Shown here in pieces: positions 19,035 to 64,000 of a stretch of DNA of 64,000 nucleotides. Source of the stretch: Schmidtea polychroa (taxonomy: Eukaryota); contig CM097885.1 in NCBI GenBank assembly GCA_044892525.1, positions 162,316,001-162,380,000 of the forward strand, written 5' to 3'. Below the pieces are notes generated by a model. The model did not search any database, was not told where the DNA came from, and was given only the letters and a program-made list of their open reading frames with translations. Positions within the stretch are counted from its first letter, which is position 1; each line of letters begins with the position of its first letter. Position numbers and translations under genes: made by a program.

Positions 19035-19360
19035 TGAAAGTGATTAAATTGAAGAAGTATTTAATTTCCAGATTTAAATAGATTTAAATAATATAATTAA
19101 AGTAAATAATAAAATTATAAATTAAAATAATAAATTAAATATATTTAAGAATGATTGAAGATTAAAATATAAAATATTTATTGAATGCTTGTGTATGAAT
19201 ATTCCCTATTCAAATATTAACTCATGCTTACGAAAATATCCTCTAAGCTAAAAACAGTGATTGTTTTAATAATAGGTATTTTTGTGTTGTTTTTAAAAAT
19301 ATAGTTTTGTTTTGTTTTTAAAATATGGATGTGATTAATTTAAGAAACCAAACTTCTAAT

Positions 19361-20378
19361 ATGGCGACCACGATGGCCAATTTTATCAAAGCACCAGAAA
19401 ATTTCGAGATGGGAACCGATGTTGAACATTTCATCAAGGAAACCGAAAGGTTTTTCGAATTAATGTCGATAGCTGAGGACTTCAAAGGTAGATTTATCAA
19501 AGCTTTTTTATCAACAGATGCAATTAAGAAATAGGATTCAACTGATGAGAAACAAAATTATATGGATAGACTGAGAGAAACCTTCAAAAAACCAATGAAT
19601 CTGATGGAAGACTTAAGTGAAGCGCTAGATTATAGACAAGGAGATGATTCCGCTGATGATTTCTGCAAAAAAAATTGAGAAATTATCAAAACGAATTCTG
19701 AAACACGAGTTAAATGAAGAAGAACTTCAAAAATTTCTCATATTCAATGCAGTGGGAGACCAAGATTTGAAAAAAGATTTGAGATTAAATGAATATAAAT
19801 CTGTGAATGAAATGAAAAAGAGAATTAAAAATAACGAGAAAGTAATTAAAGAATTAAATCGAAACAGTGACTCGATGGCAATTGTGGGAACTGAAACGAG
19901 ATATGCGGATATGGTAAAAAAAGCTGTAAATATTCCAGCAAGACCAATATTACGCAGATATAACGATATTCCTAGAAGAAATACGTTCAGCGAGCCAAAA
20001 CAGAATCGAGAATATCAGAACAAACAATCGAATTTTAATAATCAAGAATTCCAAACAAACAATAGGCCAAAGTTCAGATGCTGGGCATGTCATGAAGAAG
20101 GCCATAGAAGAACAGAATGCCCGAATGTTAAATGTTATCATTGTCACAGAGCAGGTCATTTCAAACACCAGTGCTTCCAATTAAGAAAGAATTTCAGAGA
20201 TGTAAGAGAAAATGAACAAGAAAACATATGGGGAAAATTCCAAGGAAATGGCAGAAATTTCAGAAACCGACAATATCAGAAACCAGTTGCGGCAATGGAA
20301 GAAGAAGAAGAACATGAAAATCAATACCCAAATGGATATGCTCCACCACGAGAGGAGGTGATCGGAGCACTGCAGTAA
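19361..20378 (+). pseudogene. gag with two CCHC knuckles
   Basis: CWACHEEGHRRTEC and CYHCHRAGHFKHQC; TAG at 19532-34 and a +1 shift in the A-run near 19670. Confidence 0.9.
20327..20369 (+). promoter_or_regulatory. Candidate -1 ribosomal frameshift signal (gag-pol)
   Basis: Slippery C CCA AAT in the gag frame, then stem TGCTCC(ACC)...(GGT)gatcGGAGCA. The pol frame is -1 relative to gag and open from 20318. Confidence 0.6.
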
Positions 20379-20380
20379 GT

Positions 20381-23300
20381 ATGAGTTATTTGTTGAATGG
20401 GGAATTGTATGATGATTGTTTGTATGATGATTGTTTGCATGTATTAAATAATGAGAAATATGAATATATAAGTAATGATGATAATTGTAAATGCGTCTAC
20501 GATGCAGATATTTATAGTGATTGGTATAATAATGGATTGAGGTTAGATGATTTTGGAAATGTTGTAGAGCATGTTTGTAATATTAATAATATAAATTATA
20601 ATAGTAATATAATTAAATATAATAAATTAGATGGTAGACCACGTGTCACATTATTGATCAATGGGAACGAAGTATGCTGTTTATTAGATACAGGAGCAAA
20701 GATCAGTGTGATGGATGAAAGTGTATTAGAAAAGATAGGAAAGTTTTATTTAGAAAAATGTTATGTTAAATTGAGATGTGCAAATGAGTCACCGGTATCT
20801 ATAGTAGGAAAGGTAAATATTACAGTTCAAATAGTGGGAACGAAAGAGGCGAGAATAATTGAATTTATTGTGGCCAAAGAGATTTCACCAAAGGTAATTG
20901 GAGGAATAGACTTCTTGAGAAAATTCGACATAAGGATAGTTTATTAAATGACGATGTAACTATTGCTGGAATAAAAAACGTAAAAGAATTGAGTGAATCT
21001 AACCAATGTAAAGATGGTAATGTTAGAGAGCTATGCAGAAAATTTGAGTCAATTTTTATGAAACACAAATGGGATGTGGGTAAGACAAATTTAATAACGC
21101 ATGAAATTTTAACATCAGGAAGACCTATTGTGATAAATCCAAGGCGACAGCCAGCACATTTGATTGGAAAGATTGATGAAAATATAAAAGAAATGGAAAA
21201 ATTTGGAATCATTAAAGAATGTAACTCGCCATGAAACACTCCTTTAGTGTGTGTAAAGAAAAAAGATAAAAATGATGTACGAATTTGTCTGGACTTTAGA
21301 GCACTAAACAATGTCACAGAACGACCAATATTTCCAATCCCAAATACAAATGAATTATTAGATACGTTAGAAGGTGCAAAATATTTCAGCACAAGTGATT
21401 TAGGGAATTTGTACTACCAAGTGGAACTTGATTAAGAATCGAGACTGAAGACAGCATTTTCTACCAAAAACAGACAATATTGTTTTAACAGGATGCCATT
21501 TGGAATAGCAGCAGCTCCGGCAACCTTTCAAAAGTTAATGAACATGGTATTAGGTGAACTTAATTGGCAAATAGCGATAGTGCATTTGGACGATATTCTT
21601 ATATCTTCAAAAGAATTAAAAGAACACTACGAAAATATCGAAAAAGTTTTCAAGAAAATAGAACAAGCAGGACTAAAAATTAATCCATCAAAATGTCAAT
21701 TCTTGAAAAATGAAGAAAAGTTCCTCGCACATATAATCAGCCAAGATGGAGTAAAAACAGAAGAAGAAAAAATTAAAGTAGTCAAATTTGAAAGACTCAA
21801 GTGTGTTAAGAAATTAAGAAGCTTTTTAGGGTTAACCAGTTACTATAGAAAATTTATAAAGGATTATACAGAAGATTCAAACCATTTGGAAAAGTTGTGT
21901 GGAAGCAAAGAGAAGAAGTTGATTTGGACAGAAGAATGTGAAAGTGCATTTACGAAACTGAAAGATAAGTTGATTAATGCACCAATATTAAAGTTTCCTG
22001 ATTTTAAAAAAACTTTCATATTGGATACGGACGCTAGCTTCGATCGTATTGGCTCTGTTTTGGAGTAACAGATAGTTCTGGAAAGGAAAATGTTATTGCT
22101 TATCATTAACATGCTATGTCAAAACACGAGGTGGGTTATTACATAACAAGAAAAGAACTTTTAGCAATATATCATTTCACAAATCATTTTAAACATTACC
22201 TTTATGGGAAAAGATTTATACTACTGACGGATCATAAAGCCATAACATATATGATGAAGACTAAGAAACCTATCACTCCACAATTCCAGAAATGGATAAA
22301 TTATTTAAGTAGTTTGGAGTTTTCAATTTAGGAAAGGAGAAGAACATTGCAATGCAGATACATTGTCAAGAAGTGAATGTATGACGTGCGTTCAATACCA
22401 AACCATCCATCTTAATCCAAAAACAGGGAAACTCAAAACGAAACTTTTGGCAATAATGACAGAAAACCCAGAACAAGAATGGCAAAGGAATTCAGAAAAA
22501 ATCAGAAATCATAAACAACATAAAGCAAAATGAGGGTAACAAATTCATAATAAAGAATGGAGTAATATTGACAGAAAATAATAAAATATGGATTCCGGAT
22601 GATAAAAGAATTGAATTCATTAAAAGGTATCACAAGAAACTGTGCCATGCTGGACCAATTAAAATTGAGAAATATGTGTCAAATAATTTTTCAATGAGAC
22701 ACATGAAACGAACGATCCAAGACGTAGTTCATAGTTGTGAAAATTGTCAAAAGAGGAAAACTACAACAACACGAACTAGGGAGCAAATTTGCAAAATGCC
22801 GGAAACAGGTTTATTTGAAACAATATTTATAGATTTTTGTGGTCCACTAAAACAAAGTCAGTATAGAATGAGATATATCGTCGGAATTATCGATAGTTTT
22901 AGTAAATATGTGGCACTACACGCAGTGAAATCACAAGATAAAAAAACCGTGACACCAATTTTAAGAAATAATTGGATTTTAAAATTTGGTGCGTCGAGAT
23001 TTCTACATTGTGACAGGGGTAAAGCATTTGAGAGCAAAGCTATGGATAATTTAATGAAGGAGCACAATATTAAAATTATATTTTCAAGCCCGTACCATCA
23101 TTCAGCAAATGGCCTAATCGAAAGACAATTCAGAACAATTAGAGACGCCATTCATATCACTCTAAAAGATAAAGATCACAAGAATTGGGTAGAGTTATTA
23201 CAAGAAGTCGAGTTTATGTTAAATTCTACATTTCAGAAAACAATTAGACAAACTTCAAGTGAAAGAGTTTTTGGAAAAAGAATATATAAAGAATGGTCTA

Positions 23301-23575
23301 CAAATATGTCGGTTGAGAATATGAGTTTTAAAGAAATAACAGAAAGAAAATTCAAAGTAGGAGACATAGTGCTGGTAAAAAGAAATGATAACAAAGACGA
23401 AGATCGATATGTTGGACCTGCCGAAGTAATAAAACAAATACACGAGAGAAGTTATGAAGTACAATTTGAGAATGGAAAAAGGCTTATAAGAAACATAGAG
23501 TGGATAAAGCTTTTTAAAAAGGAGGATGTGAAAGTGATTAAATTGAAGAAGTATTTAATTTCCAGATTTAAATAG
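20381..23575 (+). pseudogene. pol: protease, RT, RNase H, integrase, disrupted
   Basis: LLDTGA, CLDFRALN, VHLDDIL, ILDTDAS, TDHKAI, zinc finger H..H..C..C, FIDFCGP, HCDRGKAF, NGLIER; several stops and frameshifts. Confidence 0.95.
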
Positions 23576-23857
23576 ATTTAAATAATATAATTAAAGTAAA
23601 TAATAAAATTATAAATTAAAATAATAAATTAAATATATTTAAGAATGATTGAAGCTTAAAATATAAAATATTTATTGAATGCTTGTGTATGAATATTCCC
23701 TATTCAAATATTAACTCATGCTTACGAAAATATCCTCTAAGCTAAAAACAATGATTGTTTTAATAATAGGTATTTTTGTGTTGTTTTTAAAAATATAGTT
23801 TTGTTTTGTTTTTAAAATATGGTTGTGATTAATTTAAGAAACCAAATTTTCTAATTT

Positions 23858-32076: not shown

Positions 32077-34426
32077 CAGGGGTGCCCACTAATTTTTCTA
32101 GGAGAGCTACATTCACATCCAAAATGTGTATGCGATCTACTTTTTTAATACTTACATAATATTTACCTACAATGCAATAAATTCATCACAATAAAACAAA
32201 TATATGTCAAAATATGGAAAATTAAACTATATAACTATTTATTATAAAAAATGTAACTTAGGAAATCAAATTTAATGAAAATTATTTTTATATAGAACTT
32301 TTCAATGTTGATGCTCTACATTGGGTTGAATCCACTAGATTTTTGTAGTTTGGGATATAAGTGCTAAGACAACTTCTTAGGCTGGATTCCAAATGGTCAT
32401 CTGTTAATGTTGCTCGGTACTTTGACTTTATAATTTTCATATGTGAAAATGCAGACTCACATAAATAAGTTGAACCAAAAAATGATACTAAATTTTCGAA
32501 GCATTTTTTCAAGTTTGAATATTTATCCTCTGATAGATATTTCCATACATTTGGTTCGGAAGATCTTGATTTAATGAAGATATCATTTTGAAGTGTGATT
32601 ATTTCCATTTCAAGTATAGGGATATCCATTTTAAACAAAGTTGAAATTGAATCTGCAACAATTTCTGGTTTTATTTTTGGATTAAATGAAAGGACATAAA
32701 TGCAGCCACAATTTCAAGTTTCTTGAAGTCTTGAAAACGTCTCTCGAACTCTAAAACCAAAATTTTGATCTGTTCCGCATATCTCGTAATATTAAAGTTG
32801 ACATTTTCAGATTCTTTTAATTGTGACAACATATTTGGAAAATAACTTAAATTTTTGTCTTCTATTTTGGTAATAAGTAAATGAAGCTTTTGTATAAATG
32901 CATTGATTGAACTTATCATATCGAATATCAATTTATCCTTACCTTGTAAGTCGAGATTTAATTCATTCAGAATTGCAGTAATATCTACTAAAAATGCCAA
33001 ATCCAAGAGCCAAACATCATCTTCCAATTGCTTGAACTCATCACCTCTTGCGGCAAGGAACAACTTAATCTCAGAAAGCAAATCTCTAAATCTTTGTAAG
33101 AATCTTCCTCTACTTAGCCACCTTACATCTGAATGCATCAGTAATTCAGCAGGACCTTCGCTATTACTTTCTTCAATTTGTAATTTGAAAAGTCGTCTCT
33201 GAAGACTTCTTGCACGAATCGAGTTAGCAATTTTGAATGTTATTTCCATAATATCTCTCATATTCAGAATTTTAGCACACAAGGCTTGTTGATGAATAAT
33301 ACAGTGGTAGGAAAGAAAATCTGGGAATTCACAATCATTCCTACAACATGCTATAAATCCGTTGTGATGCCCTGTCATAGCTGGTGCGCCATCTGTTGTT
33401 ATTGATACAAGCTTACAAATTTGGAGCTGAATGATGTTGGCATAAGCTTTAAAATTCTGAAATATATCCTCACCTCGAGTTTTACTTTTGAGTGGTATAA
33501 TTGTTAATAATTCTTCCTTCGTAGAAAAATCTTTAAAGACCATTCGAATAAAAATTATAAGCTGCGAAATATCAGCCGCATCAGTTGATTCGTCTGCTTG
33601 CAATGAAAATGCGGTACAATTTCCTATGTCTAACATTAACTGATTTTTTAAATTGGTACTTATTTCTTGGACTCTCCGTGTAACTGTATTACGGGACAAT
33701 TGCATATCAGTAATAGCAGAAATTATATCTGATTTATTTTTAAAATCACAAAATAATGATTCTGCCGCTTCTAAAAATGCTTCTTTTACAATTACTCCAT
33801 CACTAAAAGATTTCTTATTTTTTGCCAGAATGTAGCTTACTCGGAAAGATGCAGCTGTAGCTGACTTTGATTTGGATGTTAGCTTCGTAAAAAATGACTG
33901 TTGAAAAGAAATGCATGTTTTCAGTTCCATGATTTTAGACTTGCGTAGTTCACTGTCAAGTGGATAATCAACTGCAAAATTCTTATGAATTGTCTTGAAA
34001 TGCCTTTCCAAATTCCCTCTTTTTGGTAATGAAATAGTAGCTTTACAAATTAAGCAACAACATTTACCTTTAATCATTACAAAAAAGTACTCCTTCTCCA
34101 TTTCTTCGCTATAATGATAAGTCTTGGCTTTTTTATTTAGCATTTTTTTATTTAGCATTTTTAAACAAAATTAATTTAACAAAATAGCTTAAGAAAATTT
34201 TTCACTTTGTTACACCAAAATTTTTTTATTTAGCATTTTTAAACAAAATTAATTTAACAAAAAAGCTTAAGAAAATTTTTCACTTTGTTACACAAAAATT
34301 TAAGCATAAAACAGAAATTTTATATAAAATCTAAATTTATATAAAAAATATTTTTTTTATCAAGATCTACTAAAAAATCCTTCGCGATCTACCGGTAGAT
34401 CGCGATCGACCTTATGGGCACCCCTG
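32077..34426 (-). mobile_element. Complete hAT element (Buster/SPIN, GTF2IRD2-like group)
   Basis: 12-bp perfect TIR CAGGGGTGCCCA; perfect 8-bp TSD CTATATAT; subterminal CGCGATCTACCGGTAGATCGCG palindrome; ~78-bp tandem duplication upstream of the ORF. Confidence 0.95.
32288..34158 (-). pseudogene. hAT transposase with one frameshift
   Basis: CCCLICK..RHFKTIH, FSLQADESTD, SITTDGAPAM, YHCIIHQQAL, VRWLSRG, FGSTYLCESAFS. A 1-nt loss near 32690 splits the 495-aa and 116-aa ORFs. Confidence 0.92.
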
Positions 34427-35215: not shown

Positions 35216-35345
35216 TGTTTCGACCAGTCAGAGAGGGATTGCCTCTGACTGGCAGTTCGTTGCATGCCTTTTTTCTATCGCGTCTGTGTGCGCGGTCTGG
35301 TTAGACCGATTCTTGTTGGTGTGCGCATACAGACGCGAGCAATGG
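35216..35345 (+). promoter_or_regulatory. Palindromic leader cassette, copy A
   Basis: 10-bp hairpin CCAGTCAGAG/CTCTGACTGG (35224-35252); 16-bp arms 35278-35293 / 35323-35338; inner CGGTCT/AGACCG hairpin. Closely matches 58515-58641 (-). The regulatory role is inference. Confidence 0.6.
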
Positions 35346-35507
35346 ATTGATTTTGTAAATAGGTAATTTATTACTATTGTAAATTTTTATGGATTGATTT
35401 TTGTAAATAGAAATTAGATTGGATTTTTGGAAATGTTGTTTTACCGGATGAATTGGAATTTTTTGGAAGACATGTTGAATTGTTTTTAAATTGGATTTGT
35501 TGAAAGA

Positions 35508-37142
35508 ATGGCGGTCGAAATGAATTTGCGATGTGATCTAGGTTGTGATCAGAAATTCTGTCTTACATCTTTTCAAAATATTAACTTTGTGAAAGGCGAT
35601 CTCATTTATACTGATTTCCAAGGAAAAGTTCCCGATAAATTAATTGTATCGATTGTCACGGAACTTTCACAGTTGTTGCCATCAATTTTCATGATTATCC
35701 ATGGGATCAGGTCTTCTAAATTCACAGATAAGTTCGTCAATAAAAACAACGATATTGTATTATGTATTCGTAAGAAAATAATATTGAATCATTCTATATC
35801 GGATTTTTCAAATCGATTTGTTTGCAAAACGAAAATCAGAAATTATTTAATTGAAGAATTATCCAACAGATTTTCTCAGTTGTCCGAATTAAAACATTTG
35901 GGTAAGTCGAAGTTTGAAATCGCGCGTGTGCTTCGACGGAAACTGCTACTGGATAAAATGGCATATGACGATAAAATGATTGAGACGAGTTCAGCTACGA
36001 GATTGTTTAATATTACTGAAGTTTATCGTGCACAAATGGAAGCAGCTCGATAAAAATCTGACGTTGGAATGGACATGATCCCTGATTGTCGATCGCAAGT
36101 TTATCGTTCACAAATGGAAGCAGCTCAACTCTATTCCCAATCGGCTGAGAGGCGACCATTAGGATGTTCAATGATGGCATTATCTGATGATATGGAACTG
36201 AACAAATTGTTATTATTCAAAAATACAATTATTATTCGTGATCTTGAATTTAAACCCGAACATGGTAGCAGAGCGTGGTTCCGGCTAGCCAGCCAGAACA
36301 AGGTATTATATAGATTTTTTATGCATGATCTTGTTATTATATTAGCAATAGGTTATATGTGTTATATTTTTATTATATTTGATATTGTTGAAACATTTCC
36401 CCTATGGCCTGCCCTCCCTAACCCTATTAGAGGTGGATTGGCGCGGGTATTTGTACAAACATTAACAGGGGGGACAATTACTCTCGAAGTTGAATCTAGT
36501 GACACGATAGAAAATGTAAAAGCGAAAATACAAGATAAAGAAGGTAGTCCACCTGACCAGCAACGATTAATTTGCGCGGGGAAACAATTAGAAGATGGGC
36601 GAACATTATTTGATTATAATATTCAAAAGGAGTCTATTTTGCGTTTAGTTTTGCGATTGAGTGGTGGAATGCAAATATTCGTGAAGACACTGACAGGAAA
36701 AACAATAACTTTGGAAATAGAATCAAGTGATACTATTGAGAAGGTAAAGGCTAAAATTTAAGAAAAAGAAGGGATACCCCCAGGGCGACAAAGACTTAAT
36801 TTTGCCGGGAAAGTATTAAAAGATGGCCTAACGTTATTAGATTATAACGTTAGGAAAGAAGCCACGGTACATCTGGTTTTGGGTCTGGCAGGGGGAAGTC
36901 CAGTATCAGATGCTGAGTTCGAGGCAGGTTACAAGAGACGAACTGGGTGGAAGATTTCGTTAGGGCGTCTGCGTAACCGGGCTTTAGGAGATGGATCGGA
37001 CCCTAGGGAAGAACAAAGGAGAATGGAGGCATACGAAGATAAATATGAGGAAGTGATAAACGAATTTGAGGAGCTGAGGAATAATTCTCGGGAGTTAGGG
37101 CGGGAGAAAGAAGCAACAGGTAACATCACACAGTTTAAATGA
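35508..37142 (+). pseudogene. Chimeric intronless frame: unknown-PSMA6 fragments-hydrophobic segment-ubiquitin-ubiquitin-tail
   Basis: ORFs at 35508, 36069 and 36879 are in the same frame, broken only by TAA at 36051-53 and 36759-61. Contains [45 protein letters not shown] (PSMA6-like). Ub1 36441-36668 is 64/76 identical and Ub2 36669-36896 is 58/76 identical to canonical ubiquitin. Confidence 0.8.
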
Positions 37143-58514: not shown

Positions 58515-58641
58515 TCCATTGCTCGCGTCTGTGTGCGCACACCAACAATATTCGGTCTAACCAGACCGCGCACACAGACGCGATATAAAAAAGCCAAACA
58601 ACTGCCAGTCAGAGGCAATCCCCCTCTGACTGGTCGAAACA
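58515..58641 (-). promoter_or_regulatory. Palindromic leader cassette, copy B
   Basis: Perfect 16-bp arms 58523-58538 / 58568-58583 and 11-bp hairpin 58605-58633; homologous to copy A. The regulatory role is inference. Confidence 0.6.
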
Positions 58642-63761: not shown

Positions 63762-63799
<38 letters not shown>

Positions 63800-63819
63800 G
63801 GTAAATTATGAGGTCAATG

Positions 63820-63942
63820 CGCGTCTGTGTGCGCACACAGACGCGAGCAATGTCATTTTTTGGGTTGAATTATTGGTATATCGCGTCTGTGTGCGCTTTT
63901 TGCTTTGTTGATTGGAATTGTGTGCGCACACAGACGCGAGCA
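63820..63942 (+). promoter_or_regulatory. Palindromic leader cassette, copy C (two units)
   Basis: Perfect 26-bp palindrome 63820-63845, then arms 63881-63896 / 63924-63939. Followed by a TTG-rich tract like those after copies A and B. The regulatory role is inference. Confidence 0.6.
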
Positions 63943-64000
63943 AGAGGTAGGACAATAATTGATTAGGTTTTTTGTGATTGTTGTAATTTTTAGATTTTTT

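What the first reader, a model, noticed from the sequence alone, without database searches (positions are those of the whole stretch)
63820..63939. Empty versus filled palindrome: 23-25 nt spacers flanked by an 8-bp core duplication
Seen: 63820-63845 is an uninterrupted 26-bp perfect palindrome. The three other instances read left half...GTGTGCGC [spacer] GTGTGCGC...right half, so the 8-bp core is duplicated around a spacer. Spacers are GGTCTGGTTAGACCGATTCTTGTTG (A, 35294-35318), GGTCTGGTTAGACCGAATATTGTTG (B) and the largely unrelated TTTTTGCTTTGTTGATTGGAATT (C, 63897-63919). Arms are conserved while spacers differ. Inference: either staggered-cut insertion into the palindrome centre (8 bp is the hAT TSD length and is reminiscent of spacer acquisition), or a paired protein-binding site with constrained spacing. 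The CG-rich motif persists in a very AT-rich background, which suggests constraint or recent origin.
Basis: partly seen in the sequence, partly recalled or inferred. Interest (0 to 1): 0.7.

Follow-up and report, generated by a model that had tools for sequence, protein, structure and literature searches.

The report
Palindromic module in retrotransposon end repeats
The 'empty' and 'filled' palindromes are the conserved front end, likely the promoter, of the terminal repeats of a young and abundant jumping gene, and the empty form is a deletion, not a landing site for newly acquired spacers.

Summary
The arm has 6,424 exact genomic hits. It sits near the 5' end of the LTRs of a young BEL/Pao retrotransposon. 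There are 2,183 exact filled pairs against 25 exact empty ones. The window's empty copy differs from a filled sister LTR by one clean 29-bp gap. Two single insertions have one empty and one filled LTR. Spacers form stepwise lineages, and spacer C occurs only between arms (21 of 21). Arms stay near-invariant with no compensatory change (0 of 117), favouring DNA protein sites over an RNA hairpin; this is inferred, and no transcription start was mapped. Spacing is loose: one small lineage spread with only the empty form. Closest known: palindrome-rich cis-regions of maize Sirevirus LTRs. The odder feature is the LTR body, an in-frame mosaic of host mRNA pieces ahead of ubiquitin-Gag. The scan already found this family and this motif on other DNA of this genome.

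The parts
63794..63798 (+). 5-bp target-site duplication ATTAT, left copy (right copy lies beyond the window end; both inside ATT microsatellite, so uninformative alone)
   Evidence: family TSD is 5 bp in 8 of 9 full-length elements
63799..64000 (+). 5' part of an 835-bp solo LTR (TG...CA) of a BEL/Pao element; runs on beyond the window and carries a spliced piece of host proteasome alpha-6 mRNA
63820..63845 (+). module 1, empty form: 26-bp perfect palindrome left by a 29-bp deletion between the two GTGTGCGC cores
   Evidence: alignment to filled sister L062; 16 of 21 sister LTRs filled at this module
63882..63938 (+). module 2, filled: left arm 63882-63896, spacer C 63897-63919, GTGT, right arm 63924-63938
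35216..36262 (+). 5' LTR of a truncated element of the same family (copy A)
35279..35337 (+). single filled module of copy A (spacer A 35294-35318)
36263..36280 (+). primer binding site, complementary to the 3' end of the genome's tRNA-Met(CAT)
36447..37139 (+). two ubiquitin units followed by the start of a Gag-like reading frame; the copy is broken and truncated
   Evidence: same Gag start in L083, L096
57737..58641 (-). solo LTR of the same family (copy B) with Ras/Rab-family and proteasome alpha pieces
58524..58582 (-). single filled module of copy B (spacer B)

Best explanation
The arm-spacer-arm unit is a conserved module at the 5' end of the LTRs of a young BEL/Pao retrotransposon, likely its U3 promoter/enhancer read by a host DNA-binding protein, and the empty palindrome is a deletion between the module's two 8-bp cores. 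Shown: the position in the LTR, one to three modules per LTR, near-invariant arms amid diverged spacers and flanks, and the deletion. Inferred: a host factor binds each arm and transcription starts downstream. Also inferred: the 15-bp GC-rich stem promotes slippage between the cores, either in chromosomal replication or second-strand synthesis (empty in one LTR only) or in first-strand reverse transcription (inherited empty lineage).
For: LTR identity: 24 of 30 primer-site loci have an arm upstream; 67 of 90 have a left arm within 2 mismatches. LTR pairs are 99-100% identical, with TG..CA ends, purine tract and 5-bp TSD in 8 of 9. Pfam DUF1759, RVT_1, Peptidase_A17 and DUF5641 lie between the LTRs. 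Position: first arm 9-34 bp from the LTR start in 13 of 13 purine-tract-anchored LTRs where an arm was found, about 60 bp in the copy-A type. AATAAA lies in the last 70 nt of 71 of 90 LTRs against 3-10 in control windows. Constraint: arms differ by 2.8% per base over 108 modules (ascertained at up to 3 mismatches) while spacers differ by a mean 11.4 edits; flanks of different lineages do not align. No covariation: 0 compensatory of 117 changed pairs, 31 G-U, 86 mismatches. Deletion: clean 29-bp gap against L062 and clean 31-bp gap between the two LTRs of insertion L179. Insertion L249 carries two different deletions in its two LTRs. Other deletions at CGCG or core repeats occur.
Against: No transcription start, binding or footprint data were available, so the promoter role is inference. 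Most arm variants are probably post-insertion mutations, which weakens the covariation test. The module folds strongly as RNA (z -4.84). A lineage with only the empty module has 8 independent insertions empty and none filled, so the spacer is dispensable and fixed spacing is not required. No arm was found in the fetched loci of two host genes, so a shared host promoter motif is not shown. Only 7 of 18 empty contexts had a filled module with identical 10-bp flanks among my loci. One ancient duplication that first created the filled form cannot be excluded.
Confidence: 0.65

Rival explanations
1. The module works as an RNA (or single-stranded DNA) hairpin in R: a TAR-like, strand-transfer, packaging or dimerisation signal, with the self-complementary GUGUGCGCACAC core able to pair between two RNA copies. 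The empty form is still a deletion.
For: Perfect 15-16-bp stem, z -4.84. Any spacer length from overlap to about 35 nt is tolerated. The common right-arm variant GTGTGCACACAC keeps a self-palindrome. One lineage extends the stem inward by a C-G pair.
Against: 0 compensatory changes in 117 changed pairs, and G-U-tolerated changes (31) do not exceed pair-breaking transitions (46). Three of four recurrent variants break a pair yet occur in young elements. The first arm can start 9 bp from the LTR end, leaving almost no U3 if it lay in R. No Rfam match in 3 LTR loci.
Confidence: 0.22
2. The module has no present function: arms are kept alike by recent common descent, recombination between co-packaged RNAs and template-switch correction within the inverted repeat.
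For: The family is young, LTRs are mosaics, arms were partly found by exact match, and some copies lose whole modules.
Against: Arms are identical across lineages whose spacers and flanks have diverged beyond alignment, in a sample chosen by primer site rather than motif, and stay 73% GC in a 27% GC background.
Confidence: 0.1
3. One reading: the perfect palindrome is a target that repeatedly receives 23-25-nt spacers by staggered cutting with an 8-bp duplication.
For: Empty and filled forms and an 8-bp direct repeat exist. Several spacer groups are not linked at low edit distance (13 groups at 5 edits). Five of the 47 long pairs have core-spacer-core-spacer form.
Against: Exact empties are about 1% of pairs. 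Spacers are shared by many copies and vary stepwise, have the same T/G bias as their flanks, and no outside source was found for spacer C. Discordant LTR pairs keep the family-wide spacer in the filled LTR. Two-spacer arrays keep the order seen in two-module LTRs. The proteins found are those of a BEL/Pao element.
Confidence: 0.03

Closest known systems
[quoted passage not shown]
   Same: GC-rich palindromic repeats in the upstream part of the LTR, conserved arms, several copies per LTR, hairpin-forming, a hotspot of fixed-length indels between the two LTRs of one element, read as cis-regulators.
   Different: Plant Copia against animal BEL/Pao. About 7 short palindromes per LTR there; here one to three 15-bp inverted pairs around a 18-28-nt spacer, starting 9-60 bp from the LTR end. 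A conserved TATA box follows there; none was identified here.
Retroviral LTR enhancer repeats and direct-repeat deletion (PMC3187697; section 2.1 and passages)
   Same: Enhancer repeats in the LTR vary in copy number; deletion removes one repeat and the sequence between.
   Different: Those repeats are 50-75 bp or longer; here the deleting repeat is 8 bp at the inner end of a 15-bp stem, and two cases affect one LTR only.
BEL/Pao LTR retrotransposons (family features recalled; domains)
   Same: Gag DUF1759, RT, Peptidase_A17, integrase-side DUF5641 in order; TG..CA LTRs; tRNA primer site; purine tract; 5-bp TSD.
   Different: The reading frame starts inside the LTR, runs through mosaic host mRNA pieces and the primer site, and has ubiquitin before Gag.
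LTR-mediated retrocopies in animals (Tan et al. 2016, PMC5131818; abstract and outline only)
   Same: Host mRNA pieces joined to an LTR element, multi-gene chimeras, in-frame products.
   Different: There the retrocopy lies between LTR parts; here the pieces are inside both LTRs of complete elements.
Burro giant Gypsy elements of planarians (PMC6431247; passages)
   Same: Probably the same kind of host; ubiquitin-like and other host-type domains in an LTR element.
   Different: Gypsy and over 30 kb there; BEL/Pao and 4.6-8 kb here. The palindromic module is not mentioned in the passages read.

Membership tests
BEL/Pao LTR retrotransposon | Two direct LTRs with TG...CA ends | tested here: met
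   9 of 20 fetched primer-site regions gave LTR pairs examined at both ends, 99-100% identical
BEL/Pao LTR retrotransposon | tRNA primer site and polypurine tract | tested here: met
   18-nt site matches genomic tRNA-Met(CAT); purine tract before 3' LTRs
BEL/Pao LTR retrotransposon | Short target-site duplication (5 bp, recalled) | tested here: met
   8 of 9 exact, 1 with one mismatch; also L179, L249, L253
BEL/Pao LTR retrotransposon | Gag DUF1759, RT, Pao peptidase_A17, integrase-side DUF5641 in this order | tested here: met
   L084 and L094; two Cys-His knuckles and YMDD in L084
BEL/Pao LTR retrotransposon | RT phylogeny inside BEL/Pao | not tested
   no tree built; assignment rests on Pao-specific Pfam domains
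hAT-type insertion with 8-bp TSD | Insert with its own terminal inverted repeats, found at unrelated target sites | tested here: not met
   spacer C occurs only between the arms, 21 of 21; spacers show no terminal repeats
CRISPR-like spacer acquisition | Spacers unrelated to each other and traceable to outside DNA | tested here: not met
   59 of 81 spacers within 2 edits of another; no outside copy of spacer C in the genome; other spacers and other genomes not searched
U3 promoter/enhancer repeat | Lies upstream of the transcription start | not testable with these tools
   only contigs were served
U3 promoter/enhancer repeat | Bound by a transcription factor and needed for activity | not testable with these tools
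   no binding or reporter data
Structured RNA element | Compensatory base-pair changes | tested here: not met
   0 of 117 changed pairs; low power

The most novel reading that the evidence does not exclude
The module is the fixed promoter of a BEL/Pao family whose R region is a roughly 600-nt translated cassette. Spliced host mRNA pieces are captured and reshuffled there, copied into both LTRs in one round, kept in frame, and cut off Gag at a Gly-Gly-ending ubiquitin by host enzymes. Its one-to-two thousand LTR copies would be dispersed promoter-plus-mosaic-ORF units.
Probability: 0.5. Interest if true: 0.7.

Novelty: new variant of a known kind. Interest (0 to 1): 0.42.

Why it matters
For the finding as posed, a spacer-acquisition-like pattern resolves into LTR cis-repeat evolution and deletion at short repeats. 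What remains useful: one 15-bp site, held constant across very different LTR lineages, marks over 6,000 places in the genome and gives a direct handle on the host factor that likely drives this family. The naturally empty lineage is a ready test of whether spacing matters. The family itself, with translated host mRNA mosaics inside its LTRs, is unusual; I did not find it in the held papers, but the scan had already noted it elsewhere in this genome.

Tried and rejected
Transcription start: no RNA holder on record was listed. Contigs laid on two LTRs cannot show a start; two contigs of one study end 20-30 nt past the last arm, but shared arms break contigs anyway, so this is no evidence. Rfam on 3 LTR loci: 0 matches. 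Penelope/hammerhead, Helitron and Pack-TIR readings were considered from the first loci and dropped once the primer site, purine tract, LTR pairs and TSDs appeared. A second LTR superfamily sharing the motif: among 96 motif-chosen loci only the tRNA-Met primer site was seen (7 hits); weak, as most are solo LTRs. Partner LTRs of empties: 1 of 19 10-kb regions held a full partner, and it was filled; most had none in range. The CCT3 capture lies in one host exon, so it says nothing on splicing. The probe for PSMA6 junction 1 matched 0 of 90 LTRs. Papers: motif text 0 hits; BEL Pao + Schmidtea + ubiquitin 0; BEL Pao + promoter + palindrome 0; planarian + NRF1 + ATAC gave 2 unrelated listings. The 2018 planarian genome paper was not held; it and its supplements, and Repbase, may describe this family. 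PMC11410931 passages had no mention of Pao. NRF1, MTF-1, SMAD, E2F and BANP resemblances are recalled and were not tested.

Full report
Observation. The sequence is as described. 63820-63845 is a perfect 26-bp palindrome, and three filled modules lie at 35279-35337, 58582-58524 (minus strand) and 63882-63938. The arm has 8 window matches against 0 in shuffles and 6,424 exact matches in the genome against 0 for the control. The 8-bp direct repeat follows from geometry: the arms are inverted repeats and the right arm is extended into a 12-bp self-palindrome. It is exact in 70 of 108 distinct modules.

What carries it. The module lies at the 5' end of a repeat that starts TG and ends CA. Window copy A is followed directly by an 18-nt site complementary to the genome's tRNA-Met(CAT); that site with the LTR end occurs 240 times. 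Of 30 such loci 24 have an arm upstream; of 90, 67 have a left arm within 2 mismatches: 26 one, 40 two, 1 three. Of 20 regions fetched downstream, I examined 9 LTR pairs at both ends: 99-100% identical, 4.6-8 kb long, with a purine tract and a 5-bp TSD, exact in 8. The 7.5- and 8-kb elements L084 and L094 encode DUF1759, RVT_1, Peptidase_A17 and DUF5641, which places them in BEL/Pao; no RT tree was built. The finding is the start of an 835-bp solo LTR in an ATT microsatellite. The host is probably a planarian flatworm, inferred from flatworm proteins being the best homologues.

Empty against filled. Exact filled pairs with 14-44 bases between 14-bp arms number 2,183; 90 have 0-23 and 47 have 35-64; 25 are exact empties. 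I saw all 25; 7 are copies of one duplicated segment. The window LTR differs from filled sister L062 by one clean 29-bp gap, 14 mismatches and small indels. Of 21 genomic copies of spacer C, all are flanked by arms; module 1 is filled in 16, empty in 2, wholly deleted between its CGCG ends in 1 and truncated in 2. Insertion L179 has a filled 5' LTR and an empty 3' LTR with a clean 31-bp gap, and the kept spacer is a family-wide one. Insertion L249 has two different deletions in its two LTRs. The 81 distinct spacers are 54% T and 23% G; 59 have a neighbour within 2 edits, against a shuffled median of 8. At looser thresholds the largest cluster is no bigger than in shuffles, so a single ancestor for all spacer groups is not shown. 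The direction is deletion; one ancient duplication that first made the filled form cannot be excluded.

Result against a strict spacing rule. At least 2046 of about 2183 exact pairs fall in an 11-base band, but the band covers a full helical turn. A search anchored downstream of the module gave 29 loci. Thirteen belong to one duplicated segment and 4 are filled LTRs with a different front end. In the remaining lineage, 8 independent insertions are empty (counting that segment once), 5 are damaged or truncated, and none is filled. Its two sub-lineages differ in flank and cargo. So the empty form has been propagated and the spacer is dispensable, at least at low copy number.

How it likely works. 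The first arm starts 9-34 bp from the LTR end in 13 purine-tract-anchored LTRs and about 60 bp in copy A. The first ATG of the LTR frame lies 84-271 nt past the last arm in most long frames. AATAAA lies in the last 70 nt in 71 of 90 LTRs against 3-10 in control windows. Arms differ by 2.8% per base while spacers differ by 11.4 edits on average. Over 181 module-plus-flank strings, 117 changed pairs gave no compensatory change, 31 G-U and 86 mismatches; most are probably post-insertion mutations, so power is low. I infer a pair of sequence-read DNA sites in U3, duplicated like retroviral enhancer repeats, at 0.65. An RNA hairpin in R remains possible (z -4.84) at 0.22. No start site could be mapped.

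The LTR body. The frame through the primer site is open for 100 or more codons inside the LTR in 60 of 90 loci, against 11 of 90 for the best run in the other two frames. It holds proteasome alpha, EAP30, Ras-family, TCP-1, RING, DSPc and DEAD pieces. The host CCT3 gene matches at 98.9% over 443 bp. The host PSMA6 gene has a 43-bp intron that is spliced out in 32 of 90 LTRs and retained in none. Ubiquitin ending Gly-Gly follows, before the Gag domain (23 such ends found in 30 loci; order). Cleavage there by host deubiquitinases is inference. Earlier scan notes describe this family and read this motif as a promoter; they are not independent support.

Comparison. [quoted passage not shown] It is not a hAT footprint or an acquisition array. 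I found no paper with the motif or this family; the 2018 planarian genome paper was not held.

Verdict. Observation confirmed; insertion model rejected; paired-site model plausible with loose spacing. New variant of a known kind, interest 0.42, most of it owed to the host-mosaic LTR rather than to the palindrome.

Noticed in passing
window 35224-35252 (+); same in copy B and L011, L012, L025, L027: A second hairpin at the very start of one LTR type: 10-bp arms CCAGTCAGAG/CTCTGACTGG conserved, loop varying in length and sequence.
   Followed up: no
L272, L274, L280, L281: In the empty lineage the same A in the right arm is replaced by G, T or C in different copies, breaking the perfect palindrome; mutation hotspot, selection or assembly error.
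   Followed up: no
G000:C1:180834591, C1:210299007, C3:11377663, C3:13834024, C4:72020281: Core-spacer-core-spacer-core arrays that look CRISPR-like but fit recombination between the 8-bp cores of tandem modules.
   Followed up: partly
window 36295-36306; most primer-site loci: A splice-donor-like AAG|GTA(A/T)T lies about 35 nt after the LTR end; it might suppress the 5' LTR poly(A) signal as in HIV (recalled).
   Followed up: no
G000:C1:79.33-79.39 Mb: Tandem array of tRNA-Met(CAT) genes with a 454-bp unit; 1,227 exact matches of the probe genome-wide.
   Followed up: partly
L031:4870-5630: A decayed arm-like motif followed by actin-like sequence, probably an old LTR of the same family with another cargo.
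   Followed up: no
window 19035-23828 (+): A separate Gypsy-like element with 300-bp direct repeats 99% alike and broken gag/pol frames.
   Followed up: no
window 32288-34405: A long transposase-like frame on the minus strand (hAT-like by recall) with a 24-bp perfect palindrome at 34382-34405.
   Followed up: no
L239/L250 and L248: Two other loci share about 1.1 kb of upstream flank with the window's solo LTR and have lost module 1 by a different deletion.
   Followed up: partly
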